Assembly: GCF_058153355.1 (NCBI RefSeq)
Contig: NZ_CM177019.1
Length of the DNA: 64,000 bases
Strand: one strand, 5' to 3'
In this document: piece by piece, positions 15,001 through 18,000 of the stretch
How positions within the stretch are numbered: the first letter of the stretch is position 1
Layout: the number at the start of each line of letters is the position of its first letter
Made by a program: the position numbers

Positions 15001-18000
15001 CTCAGATCGGCGGGGTTATCATAAACCCCGACGCAGTGCCCCACTTCATCACGGATATCGTTCCACTCCGAACACGCCACCTGACAGGCTTTACAGCCGA
15101 TACAGGTGGAAACGTCGATAAGTTTCGCGACTTCTGCTTTGTAATCACGCACCTGAGAAGGCGGCGTGATGGAGTTAGTTGCGGACCTTTTGATAATGTC
15201 CTGCGTTTCCATAGCCATCTGTTCGCCCCCTTACGCCTTCTCGATGTTGACTAAGAACGCTTTATATTCCGGCGTTTGCGAGTTTGCATCACCGACATTC
15301 GGCGTCAGAGTGTTAGCGATATAACCTTTACGCGCGACACCCTCAAAGCCCCAGTGGATTGGAATACCCACCGTTTCAACCTGCTGACCGTTTACATTCA
15401 GCGGTTTCAGACGGCGCGTTACCACAGCCACCGCGCGGATAAAGCCACGCTTGCTGGAGACAGTGACACGATCGCCATTGGCAATGCCTTTCGCCGCCGC
15501 CAGCGTTTCACTGATTTCCACAAACTGTTCCGGCTGAGCAATTGCGTTGAGCAACGCGTGCTTGGTCCAGGTGTGGAAGTGCTCGGTCAGACGATAGGTC
15601 GTACCCACATACGGGAACTGCTCTTTTTTACCCATCCGCAGCGCGTCTTGTTCATACAGACGAACAACCGGGTTAGACACCACGTTCGGATGCAGCGGGT
15701 TAGTGCCCAGCGGCGTTTCAATTGGCTCGTAGTGTTCCGGGAACGGACCTTCCGCCATTTTGTTGATGGCAAACAGGCGTCCCATCCCTTCCGGCTGCAT
15801 GATAAACGGCCCGGTTGGCGTACCCGGTGCGGCATTGCCGAAGTCCGGAATATCGTTACCCGTCCACTTGCTGCCGTTCCACTGGATCAGCATCCGTTTC
15901 GGATCCCACGGTTTACCGTTGATATCCGCCGAAGCACGGTTGTACAGCACGCGACGGTTGAGCGGCCACGCCCAGGCCCATCCCAGCGTATTCCCCAGAC
16001 CGGACGGGTCGGAGTTATCGCGGTTGGCCATCTGGTTGCCCTGCTCTGTCCAGCTACCGGTGTAGATCCAGCAAGAAGATGCGGTTGTACCGTCATCACG
16101 CAGATGCGCAAAGCTACTCAGCAACTGACCTTTTTTCGCAATCAGCACGCCATTAGCGTCATAGAGATCTTCCAGCGCATAGCCGTTGTTCTCTTTTGCC
16201 ACTTCGTCTGACTGCGGCTCGTGCGGCTGCTTGTAGTTCCAGCTCATCTTCATCAGCGGTTCTACACCTTTACCACCTTCGGCTTTGTACAACTCGCGAA
16301 GATGATGGTAGATACCCGCCAGAATTTCGCCGTCGTTACGTGCTTCGCCTGGCGCGTCCTGACCTTTCCAGTGCCACTGCAACCAGCGACCGGAGTTAGC
16401 GATAGAACCATCTTCTTCAGCAAAGCAGGTCGAAGGCAGACGGAATACCTCTGTCTGAATAGACGCCGGATCGACATCGTTCGACTCGCCGTGGTTCTGC
16501 CAGAAAGTAGAGGTTTCAGTCACCAGCGGATCGATAACCACCATGTACTTCAGCTTGCTCAGGCAGCTCACCACTTTGTTTTTGTCCGGGAAGGACGCAA
16601 CCGGGTTAAAGCCCTGGCAGAAATAACCTGTGACTTTGCCTTCATCCATCATGTTGAAATACTTGATGACGTCGTAGGTCTGGTCCCACTTCGGCAGCCA
16701 GTCATAGCCCCAGTTGTTCTCTTTCTGCGCGGCATCGCCGTAGAAAGATTTCATCAGGCTAACGAAGAACTTCGGATAGTTGCTCCAGTAGTTCACCTGA
16801 TCAGCCAGCGTCGCTTTCGGCGTGTTCGCTTCCAGATACGACTGCAAATCAACCTGTTTTTCTGACGGCAGCGTCAGATAACCCGGCAGGCTGGTAGAGA
16901 GCAGGCCTAAGTCGGTCAGGCCCTGAATGTTAGAGTGACCACGCAATGCGTTCACGCCGCCACCAGCCATACCCATGTTACCGAGCAGCAACTGGATCAT
17001 CGCCATAGTACGGATGTTCTGCGCACCCACGGTGTGTTGGGTCCAGCCCAGCGCGTACAGGAAGGTGGTGGTGCGATCCGGCGCGCTGGTGGAGGCCAGC
17101 ACTTCACACACTTTCAGGAAGTCGGCTTTTGGTGTACCGCAGATGTTTTCAACAACGTCCGGCGTGTAGCGGGAAACGTGTGCTTTCAGCAGGTTCCACA
17201 CACAGCGCGGATGAGTCAGTGTTTCATCGCGTTTCGCATAGCCGTTTTCATCGAACTGATAGTTCCAGGACGATTTATCGTATTGCCGTTTTTCAGCGTC
17301 ATAACCGCTGAACAGGCCGTCTTCAAAAGTAAAATCATCACGCACCAGCAAGCTGGCGTTGGTGTAATGCTTAACGTATTCGGCATTGATTTTGTTGTTT
17401 TCGATCAGGTAGCGCAAAACGCCAGACAGGAACGTAATGTCCGTACCGGAACGAATAGGTGCGTAGATATCCGCCACAGAAGCGGTACGCGTAAAACGGG
17501 GATCGACAACGATCAAGGTTGCATCGTTGTTGTTTTTCGCTTCCATCGCCCAGCGAAAACCGACGGGATGCGCTTCAGCAGCGTTACCGCCCATCACCAT
17601 TACGACGTTAGCGTTTTTGATATCCACCCAGTGGTTGGTCATCGCACCGCGACCAAATGTTGGAGCAAGACTTGCTACCGTTGGTCCGTGTCAGACGCGC
17701 GCCTGGTTGTCTACCGCCAGCATCCCGAGGGAGCGGGCAAATTTCTGTGTCAGCATCCCGGTTTCGTTGCTGGCACCGGAAGCACACAGCATACCGGTAG
17801 AAAGCCAACGGTTTACCGTTACGCCCTGCTCATTCTTTTCAATAAAGTTAGCGTCACGGTCTGCCTTCATCAGCTTCGCAATGCGGGAGAATGCTTCTTC
17901 CCAGCTAATGCGCTGCCATTTGTCAGAACCTGGCGCACGATATTCCGGGTAGCGCAGACGGTTTTCGCTGTTGACGTAATCCAGCAATCCGGCCCCTTTC

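What the first reader, a model, noticed from the sequence alone, without database searches (positions are those of the whole stretch)
17640..17700. Selenocysteine UGA in fdnG with a downstream hairpin-capable segment
The apparent break of fdnG into two ORFs is the known Sec codon (complement of 17691-17693). The mRNA immediately 3' (GGUAGCAAGUCUUGCUCC..) can form a stem-loop in the position expected for a bacterial SECIS. Gene callers routinely mis-split such genes.
Basis: partly seen in the sequence, partly recalled or inferred. Interest (0 to 1): 0.3.

Follow-up and report, generated by a model that had tools for sequence, protein, structure and literature searches.

The report
Known selenocysteine signal in fdnG

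Summary
The observation and its interpretation are both confirmed.

- **Reading frame:** Window 15231-18278 (minus strand) is one 1015-codon frame. It is interrupted only by a TGA at 17693-17691, which is codon 196.
- **Protein identity:** The product aligns end to end with the crystal structure of E. coli FdnG (1KQF chain A). Residue 196 in that structure is the non-standard residue, selenocysteine.
- **RNA element:** The 59 nt around and after the TGA (17638-17696, minus) match Rfam SECIS_3 (RF01989) at 84.3 bits against a cut-off of 63. It is the only Rfam match above threshold in the 64 kb window.
- **Known SelB determinants:** The apical hairpin GGUAGCAAGUCUUGCUCC starts exactly 11 nt after the UGA. 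It carries the bulged U17 and the loop G23-U24 described for the fdhF SECIS.
- **Conservation:** The element is identical to those of K-12 fdnG and fdoG and is near-invariant across 5,425 E. coli genomes.
- **Covariation:** Across 78 distinct homologous sequences from many phyla, the apical helix is 97% paired, with compensatory changes at three pairs.

One nuance emerged. The E. coli lower stem uses a different pairing register from the Rfam consensus. Folding energy alone is a weak discriminator.

Novelty: already known. Interest: low.

The parts
15231..18278 (-). fdnG coding sequence: formate dehydrogenase-N alpha subunit, 1015 codons including Sec196. The N-terminus reads MDVSRRQFFK, a twin-arginine signal motif.
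   Evidence: Translation has a single internal stop. Full-length match to PDB 1KQF_A at 2391 bits. RefSeq annotates the same stretch as fdnG. 97.5% nt identity and 6 aa differences from K-12.
17691..17693 (-). In-frame UGA, codon 196, decoded as selenocysteine.
   Evidence: Read directly from the sequence. Aligns with X196 of 1KQF_A. fdoG has a stop at the same codon 196 and fdhF at codon 140.
17638..17696 (-). SECIS element as delimited by Rfam RF01989 (SECIS_3): 59 nt, starting 3 nt before the UGA.
   Evidence: 84.3 bits against a gathering score of 63, E 8.9e-20 to 1.4e-18. Identical to the K-12 fdnG and fdoG elements.
17646..17691 (-). Whole base-paired hairpin in the register that the E. 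coli sequence favours. Numbering from the U of UGA as position 1, A3 pairs with U48. The lower stem is positions 3-13 with 38-48, and the upper stem-loop is positions 15-32.
   Evidence: Minimum-free-energy structure at -14.6 kcal/mol. The same structure evaluates to -14.6 kcal/mol against -3.3 kcal/mol for the Rfam consensus register on this sequence.
17662..17679 (-). Apical (minimal) SECIS hairpin GGUAGCAAGUCUUGCUCC, beginning 11 nt after the UGA. Bulged U17 is at 17677; loop G23 and U24 are at 17671 and 17670.
   Evidence: Folds as ((.(((((...))))))). In 78 distinct homologues this helix is 97.1% paired, with compensatory changes at 3 of 7 pairs. Loop G is present in 77/78 and loop U in 78/78 at positions the search left free. 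The determinants are as described for fdhF in PMC8659212.
17626..17696 (-). 71-nt run of perfect identity between this fdnG and its paralogue fdoG of K-12. It is the longest such run in the two genes.
   Evidence: The paralogues are 74.6% identical in nt overall. The longest identical run is 71 nt, starting at fdnG nt 583, 3 nt before the UGA; the next longest is 35 nt. It spans 23 consecutive identical codons, against a 60% baseline for codons encoding the same amino acid. The run is at least 99% identical in 5432 of 5433 E. coli records.
13688..15218 (-). fdnH (14334-15218) and fdnI (13688-14341), the beta and gamma subunits. They complete the fdnGHI operon downstream of fdnG.
   Evidence: ORF list. 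RefSeq annotation of the 99.7%-identical strain N96, where locus coordinate minus 5001 gives the window coordinate, and of K-12.

Best explanation
The window is E. coli chromosome, and 15231-18278 (minus) is fdnG, the catalytic molybdopterin subunit of respiratory formate dehydrogenase-N.

Codon 196 is UGA. It is not a stop; it is recoded to selenocysteine, which is the active-site residue.

Recoding is directed by the mRNA hairpin that begins right after the UGA, inside the reading frame. Its 18-nt apical stem-loop starts 11 nt after the UGA. It presents a bulged U (U17) and a G-U in the loop (G23, U24).

By established knowledge of the E. coli system, this is how it works. The specialised elongation factor SelB binds these nucleotides while carrying Sec-tRNA(Sec) and GTP. 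That tethers the tRNA at the right distance to enter the ribosomal A site when the UGA arrives, in competition with release factor 2.

Shown here:
- the frame and the position of the UGA;
- the identity of the protein;
- membership of the RNA family;
- the spacing and the determinant nucleotides;
- evolutionary conservation and covariation of the apical helix.

Inferred from published work on the identical K-12 sequence, not tested here: SelB binding and selenium incorporation.
For: - **Frame:** a single in-frame TGA in a 1015-codon frame.
- **Protein:** full-length alignment to the solved FdnG structure 1KQF_A, with the TGA opposite X196.
- **Annotation:** the same DNA is annotated fdnG-fdnH-fdnI in RefSeq. 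It is present in 5425 of 5426 complete E. coli genomes.
- **RNA family:** Rfam SECIS_3 at 84.3 bits against 63, the only gathering-level match in the window.
- **Identity to known elements:** 59/59 nt identical to K-12 fdnG and fdoG.
- **Paralogue comparison:** the longest fdnG/fdoG identity run, 71 nt, sits exactly on the element. Its synonymous sites are frozen: 23 identical codons in a row.
- **Population:** near-invariant across E. coli.
- **Covariation:** in 78 distinct homologous 59-mers from Proteobacteria, Acidobacteriota and other phyla, the apical helix is 97.1% paired. Pair 21:33 occurs as GC 49, AU 13, CG 10; pair 22:32 as GC 57, UG 19; pair 24:30 as AU 38, CG 35, GC 2. The covariation score is 0.245 against 0.116 when shuffled (0 of 500 shuffles reach it) and at most 0.10 for slid partners.
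- **Frozen synonymous sites:** third-codon positions that the search pattern left free are invariant where the structure needs them. These are column 18, G of the Thr/Ser codon, and column 27, U of the loop.
- **Published criteria:** 11-nt spacing, U17, G23 and U24 as described for the fdhF minimal SECIS (PMC8659212). The bSECIS model constraints are all satisfied: loop 3-9 nt, upper stem 4-16 bp, a G in the first two loop positions, 16-37 nt from UGA to loop, MFE <= -7.5 kcal/mol (PMC13188914).
- **Literature:** the fdnG UGA = Sec is in the literature as Berg et al. 1991, cited in PMC13188914.
Against: Nothing contradicts it. The limits are:
- The hairpin's folding energy is not clearly better than shuffled sequence: z -0.63 for 54 nt and -2.06 for 44 nt and 18 nt.
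[quoted passage not shown] The source genome's Sec machinery is therefore assumed from its being E. coli.
- The homologue set was collected with a pattern that fixes 28 bases and the length. Several columns, including the bulged U, are invariant by construction.
- The sequences are phylogenetically related, so shuffle counts are not probabilities.
- No experiment was run.
Confidence: 0.97

Rival explanations
1. The TGA is a genuine stop. On this reading fdnG is a pseudogene, or two separate genes, and the downstream hairpin is incidental.
For: A mechanical ORF list shows two ORFs, 17691-18278 and 15231-17642. The hairpin's energy is not far from shuffled controls.
Against: - The 820 codons after the TGA stay in frame and open, and differ from K-12 FdnG at only 5 residues (6 across the whole 1015-residue protein).
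- The same TGA is present in K-12 fdnG and fdoG, and in 120 or more homologues from many phyla.
- The crystal structure has a non-standard residue at that position.
- The Rfam SECIS_3 match has E about 1e-18.
Confidence: 0.01
2. The extreme nucleotide conservation after the UGA reflects something other than selection on an RNA structure. It would come only from protein-level constraint at the active site, or from gene conversion between fdnG and fdoG.
For: - The peptide HGPTVASLAPTFGRGAMTNHW is the most conserved stretch of the protein, with amino-acid identity 0.9-1.0 in this block across homologues.
- Gene conversion between paralogues could produce a 71-nt identical run.
- The excess of identical synonymous codons over the flanks is modest in the broad set: 0.63 against 0.42-0.47.
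Against: - The helix is maintained by compensatory double changes: AU to GC to CG at 21:33 and AU to CG at 24:30.
- Some of these changes alter two amino acids together: Ala-Ser-Leu-Ala becomes Ser-Ser-Leu-Gly.
- Four-fold degenerate third positions, columns 18 and 27, are invariant in 78 distinct sequences.
- Twenty-four loci from different genera share the exact 59-mer. These include Yersinia, Photorhabdus, Providencia, Citrobacter and Enterobacter. Conversion within a single genome cannot explain that.
Confidence: 0.02

Closest known systems
E. coli K-12 fdnG and fdoG SECIS elements (Rfam RF01989, SECIS_3)
   Same: All 59 nt are identical, and the Rfam score is the same at 84.3 bits. The codon position is the same (196) and so is the gene context, fdnGHI.
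   Different: Nothing differs within the element. Elsewhere the window's fdnG differs from K-12 at 75 of 3048 nt and 6 residues. The E. coli lower stem fits the Rfam consensus register poorly, at -3.3 kcal/mol. It fits a register shifted by one, at -14.6 kcal/mol.
E. coli fdhF SECIS (Rfam RF01988, SECIS_2), the experimentally dissected model SECIS
   Same: The architecture is the same. The UGA is followed by CACGG.CC, an 11-nt spacer, then GGU with a bulged U17. G23-U24 sit in the apical loop, and the upper stem has G-C pairs at its base (PMC8659212).
   Different: - It belongs to a different Rfam family. The window scores only 28.8 bits on SECIS_2 (cut-off 70), and fdhF scores 35.8 bits on SECIS_3 (cut-off 63).
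- The fdhF apical hairpin is 17 nt with a GGUC tetraloop. The fdnG hairpin is 18 nt, with a GUC triloop or an AGUCU pentaloop.
- The host protein differs: cytoplasmic FDH-H with Sec140, against periplasmic FDH-N with Sec196.
General bacterial SECIS model (bSECISearch constraints, summarised in PMC13188914)
   Same: All four constraints are met: a 3-5 nt loop with G first or second, followed by U; a 7-bp upper stem; 19 nt between the UGA and the loop; and an MFE of -13.8 to -14.6 kcal/mol.
   Different: None.

Membership tests
Bacterial SelB-dependent SECIS (fdnG/fdoG type, Rfam RF01989 SECIS_3) | Score at or above the curated gathering threshold of the covariance model | tested here: met
   84.3 bits against 63, with the full model 1-59 matched at 17638-17696 (-).
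Bacterial SelB-dependent SECIS (fdnG/fdoG type, Rfam RF01989 SECIS_3) | In-frame UGA inside an otherwise open frame, at the position of Sec in a characterised selenoprotein | tested here: met
   Codon 196 of 1015 aligns with X196 of the FdnG crystal structure 1KQF_A.
Bacterial SelB-dependent SECIS (fdnG/fdoG type, Rfam RF01989 SECIS_3) | Stem-loop immediately 3' of the UGA within the coding region, with the upper stem-loop starting 11 nt after the UGA | tested here: met
   UGA, then CACGGACCAAC (11 nt), then GGUAGCAAGUCUUGCUCC. The criterion is from PMC8659212.
Bacterial SelB-dependent SECIS (fdnG/fdoG type, Rfam RF01989 SECIS_3) | SelB contact nucleotides: bulged U17 and G23 (plus U24) in the apical loop | tested here: met
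   Numbering from the U of UGA, U17 (17677) is unpaired in the fold, and G23 and U24 (17671, 17670) are in the loop. In homologues, the loop G is present in 77/78 and the loop U in 78/78. The bulged-U column was fixed by my search pattern, so its invariance says nothing.
Bacterial SelB-dependent SECIS (fdnG/fdoG type, Rfam RF01989 SECIS_3) | bSECIS model constraints: loop 3-9 nt, upper stem 4-16 bp, G in the first two loop positions, 16-37 nt from UGA to loop, MFE <= -7.5 kcal/mol | tested here: met
   Loop GUC or AGUCU, 7-bp upper stem, 19-nt distance, MFE -13.8 to -14.6 kcal/mol. The constraints are from PMC13188914.
Bacterial SelB-dependent SECIS (fdnG/fdoG type, Rfam RF01989 SECIS_3) | Helix supported by compensatory substitutions in homologues | tested here: met
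   The apical helix is 97.1% paired, with 3 of 7 pairs changed on both sides. No shuffle of 500 reaches the observed covariation score, and slid controls reach at most 0.10 against 0.245. The lower helix is inconclusive: most of its columns are fixed by the protein or the pattern, and there are two alternative registers.
Bacterial SelB-dependent SECIS (fdnG/fdoG type, Rfam RF01989 SECIS_3) | Physical binding by SelB and selenium incorporation at the UGA | not testable with these tools
   Known from the literature for the identical K-12 sequence (Berg et al. 1991, cited in PMC13188914; Sec in 1KQF). Not tested for this strain.
Bacterial SelB-dependent SECIS (fdnG/fdoG type, Rfam RF01989 SECIS_3) | Genome encodes selA, selB, selC (tRNA-Sec) and selD | not testable with these tools
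   Only 64 kb of the genome is available, and no tRNA gene lies in the window. The window is E. coli at 98-99.7% identity. E. coli carries these genes according to established knowledge.
fdhF-type SECIS (Rfam RF01988 SECIS_2) | Score at or above the gathering threshold | tested here: not met
   28.8 bits against 70. The architecture is the same, but it is not a member of this sequence family.
Formate dehydrogenase-N alpha subunit (FdnG, Mo-bisMGD DMSO-reductase family) | Full-length homology to the solved enzyme, an fdnGHI operon, a twin-arginine signal and an N-terminal Cys cluster | tested here: met
   Residues 1-1015 align to 1-1015 of 1KQF_A at 2391 bits. fdnH and fdnI lie downstream. The motifs SRRQFFK and CTYCSVGC are read directly from the translation.

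The most novel reading that the evidence does not exclude
The lower stem of this SECIS family may exist in two lineage-specific pairing registers, kept by covariation at two synonymous Gly third-codon positions (Gly198, alignment column 12, and Gly209, column 45).

- Enterobacterales, Pasteurellaceae and some others have A12:U45 (19 sequences) or the swapped U12:A45 (6 sequences). All 25 favour the E. coli register.
- All 33 sequences with C12/C45 favour the Rfam consensus register, in which C12 pairs with G44 and G11 with C45.

If this is real, the single Rfam consensus structure mis-draws the E. coli lower stem. It would also mean the lower stem is under selection, although it is reported to be dispensable for SelB binding.
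Probability: 0.4. Interest if true: 0.15.

Novelty: already known. Interest (0 to 1): 0.05.

Why it matters
It matters only as a correctness check. The apparent split of fdnG must be annotated as one selenoprotein gene, with UGA196 translated as Sec, and not as a pseudogene or two ORFs.

The element is one of the founding examples of bacterial selenocysteine recoding, so confirming it adds no new biology.

The by-products are minor:
- a clean demonstration that an RNA structure freezes synonymous sites, and even couples amino-acid changes next to an active site;
- the note that the Rfam consensus register does not fit the E. coli lower stem.

Tried and rejected
It passes, but z-scores are only -0.63 (54 nt) and -2.06 (44 nt and 18 nt). 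I did not rely on it.
- **SECIS_2 (fdhF type) membership.** Rejected at 28.8 bits against 70.
- **Other Rfam families.** The other sub-threshold hits nearby, mir-129 and SNORD49 at E about 8, are chance.
- **Synonymous-codon conservation profile over 85 homologues.** It shows only a modest peak: 0.63 identical codons in SECIS codons +1 to +15, against 0.42-0.47 in the flanks. Covarying changes lower identity, and my pattern excluded AGR Arg codons. It supports the case but is not decisive.
- **Lower-helix covariation.** Both registers give about 82% pairing over the mixed set. It cannot be settled globally, only per lineage.
- **Pseudogene or true-stop reading.** Rejected; see the rival explanations.
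- **Papers and scripts.** One paper I wanted, PMC6103685, is not held.
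Full report
**1. What is in the sequence**

Read on the minus strand, window 17800-17500 contains ...GCG CGU GUC UGA CAC GGA CCA ACG GUA GCA AGU CUU GCU CCA ACA UUU GGU CGC GGU GCG AUG ACC... The TGA lies at 17693-17691.

A mechanical ORF list gives two minus-strand ORFs: 17691-18278 (195 aa) and 15231-17642 (803 aa, from an internal ATG). They share one frame. Translating 15231-18278 gives 1015 codons with one internal stop at codon 196.

**2. Identity of the gene**

With Cys substituted for the stop, the product matches PDB 1KQF chain A over residues 1-1015 of both, at 2391 bits. That chain is the 'formate dehydrogenase, nitrate-inducible, major subunit'. The stop falls opposite the X at position 196 of the crystal-structure sequence.

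The DNA is E. coli:
- 5425 of 5426 complete E. coli genomes hold at least 80% of window 15000-18500.
- Most of them are 95-99% identical. The best is strain N96, at 99.7%.
- RefSeq annotates the stretch as fdnG followed by fdnH. The K-12 and N96 records show the full yddG / fdnG-fdnH-fdnI / yddM context, with fdnG as a single 3048-nt CDS.

Against K-12, the window's fdnG has 75 nucleotide differences and 6 amino-acid differences. None lies in the SECIS.

The translation begins MDVSRRQFFK, a twin-arginine motif, and carries CTYCSVGC. Both are expected for the periplasmic Fe-S and Mo-bisMGD subunit (established knowledge).

**3. The RNA element**

A scan of all Rfam families over the 64 kb window gives exactly one match above a gathering score. 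It is SECIS_3 (RF01989) at 17638-17696 (minus): 84.3 bits against 63, E = 1.4e-18, with the whole model matched.

The fdhF-type model SECIS_2 scores the same place at only 28.8 bits, against a cut-off of 70.

Running the same scan on K-12 loci gives these results:
- The fdnG and fdoG elements are letter-for-letter identical to the window's 59 nt. Both score 84.3 bits.
- fdhF carries SECIS_2 at 87.1 bits.

Folding results:
- The 54 nt from the UGA fold at -14.6 kcal/mol into a two-part hairpin, but with z = -0.63 against shuffles.
- The 44 nt after the UGA fold at -13.8 kcal/mol, z = -2.06. The 18-nt apical hairpin folds at -4.5 kcal/mol, z = -2.06. The fdhF equivalents give -14.2 and -4.2 kcal/mol.

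Thermodynamic stability alone would not have proved the point, though.

**4. Anatomy against the published determinants**

Positions are numbered from the U of UGA as 1.
- The spacer CACGGACCAAC occupies positions 4-14, which is 11 nt.
- The apical hairpin occupies positions 15-32.
- U17 is bulged.
- G23 and U24 are in the loop.

This matches the description of the fdhF minimal SECIS. That element is a 17-nt upper stem-loop 11 nt from the UGA, with U17 and G23 as the SelB contacts (PMC8659212).

It also satisfies the four constraints of the general bacterial SECIS model (PMC13188914). Those are a loop of 3-9 nt, an upper stem of 4-16 bp, a G in the first two loop positions, 16-37 nt from UGA to loop, and MFE <= -7.5 kcal/mol.

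The same review cites Berg et al. 1991 for the original demonstration that the fdnG opal codon encodes selenocysteine.

**5. Evidence for selection on the RNA**

(a) *Paralogue test.* This fdnG and K-12 fdoG are 77% identical in protein and 74.6% in DNA.
- Their longest run of identical nucleotides is 71 nt. It starts 3 nt before the UGA (window 17696-17626). The next longest run is 35 nt.
- It covers 23 consecutive identical codons. Only 60% of codons encoding the same amino acid are identical elsewhere in the two genes.

(b) *Population test.* The 71-mer is at least 99% identical in the best match of 5432 of 5433 E. coli records.

The pattern was the UGA plus conserved codon positions, with third positions and the whole apical hairpin left free. 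The 120 stretches reduce to 78 distinct 59-mers from Enterobacterales, Pasteurellaceae, Burkholderiales, Pseudomonas, Alphaproteobacteria, Acidobacteriota and others.

For the apical helix (columns 18-25 with 29-35):
- 97.1% of cells are paired.
- Pair 21:33 occurs as GC 49, AU 13, CG 10.
- Pair 22:32 occurs as GC 57, UG 19.
- Pair 24:30 occurs as AU 38, CG 35, GC 2.

For the whole structure, the covariation score is 0.245 against 0.116 +/- 0.006 when shuffled (0 of 500 shuffles reach it). Partners slid by 1-3 columns score at most 0.10.

Third-codon positions left free by the pattern are invariant where the structure needs them:
- Column 18 is G, the third base of the Thr/Ser codon, which is the first base of the apical stem.
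- Column 27 is U24 of the loop.
- The loop G is present in 77 of 78 sequences.

Some compensatory changes alter two amino acids together (ASLA to SSLG). The RNA structure therefore constrains the protein next to the active site.

Caveats on this data set:
- The pattern fixes 28 bases and the length. Columns such as the bulged U are invariant by construction.
- The sequences are related by descent, so shuffle counts are not probabilities.

**6. A nuance in the lower stem**

The Rfam consensus register leaves A·C and A·G mismatches in the E. coli sequence and evaluates to -3.3 kcal/mol. The minimum-free-energy register is shifted by one on the 3' side, with a bulged G, and gives -14.6 kcal/mol.

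Across the 78 sequences:
- All 19 with A12/U45 and all 6 with U12/A45 favour the E. coli register.
- All 33 with C12/C45 favour the Rfam register.

Columns 12 and 45 are the third positions of Gly198 and Gly209. This looks like register-specific synonymous covariation. However, most lower-stem columns are fixed by the protein, so I regard it as suggestive only.

**7. Mechanism**

The following is established knowledge for E. coli, inferred here and not tested. SelB·GTP·Sec-tRNA(Sec) binds the apical hairpin through U17 and G23. The approaching ribosome melts the lower stem. When UGA196 reaches the A site, the tethered ternary complex delivers Sec in competition with RF2.

Sec196 then serves in the active site of formate dehydrogenase-N. 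The window holds no tRNA gene and no sel genes, so the trans-acting machinery of this particular genome could not be checked.

**8. Verdict**

This is the already-known fdnG Sec codon and its SECIS, identical to the K-12 element. Interest is low.

- Folding energy is a weak test.
- Current RefSeq annotation does not split the gene.

**9. Seen in passing**

- The window carries a HigB-like toxin ORF (13075-13353) upstream of yddM/HigA (13353-13637). K-12 lacks the toxin.
- It carries a full-length porin gene (19651-20751) where K-12 keeps only the yddL fragment.
- It lacks about 320 bp of REP-like sequence that K-12 has between yddM and fdnI.

Noticed in passing
window 13075-13637 (+): There is an intact two-gene toxin-antitoxin pair. 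A 92-aa HigB-like RelE-family toxin (Pfam PF05015, 64 bits) at 13075-13353 overlaps by one base the 94-aa HTH antitoxin yddM (13353-13637). K-12 has only yddM: window 12927-13347 has no counterpart in the K-12 locus.
   Followed up: partly
window 19651-20751 (+): A full-length 366-aa general porin (Pfam Porin_1, 448 bits) lies next to yddG. It is annotated 'ompC' in strain N96. In K-12 the alignment stops at window 19934, and only the short fragment gene yddL remains there.
   Followed up: partly
window 13632-13665, against K-12 locus L001 7048-7371: Between yddM and fdnI, K-12 carries about 320 bp that the window lacks. That K-12 stretch holds two sub-threshold naRNA4/REP-like Rfam hits (L001 7066-7102 and 7244-7280), so it looks like an insertion or deletion of REP elements.
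   Followed up: partly
window 17646-17691 (-), and alignment A1 columns 6-16 with 41-51: The Rfam SECIS_3 consensus draws the lower stem in a register that fits the E. coli sequence badly (-3.3 kcal/mol against -14.6 kcal/mol for the shifted register). Lineages split cleanly by the third bases of Gly198 and Gly209: A/U or U/A against C/C.
   Followed up: yes
E. coli genome collection (not in the window): Seven to eight of the roughly 10,830 fdnG/fdoG-like matches in complete E. coli assemblies lie on records classed as plasmids.
   Followed up: no
L012 4126-4181 (Candidatus Desulfovibrio gallistercoris MAG): This is the one pattern match whose apical segment does not fit the family helix or the GU loop. 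It reads GGUACCGGCUCUGGCAGA and encodes VPALAE. It presumably carries a different SECIS type on a homologous FdhA.
   Followed up: no
L052 2250-2305 and 8164-8219 (uncultured Enterobacterales MAG): Two Sec-UGA and SECIS copies lie on the same strand, 5.9 kb apart on one contig. This suggests two FDH-N/O-type operons in tandem.
   Followed up: no
whole window: The window is 98-99% identical to most E. coli genomes but 99.7% identical over the fdnG region to a single strain, N96, from Tibetan pig faeces. The source is probably a lineage that is poorly represented among complete genomes.
   Followed up: no
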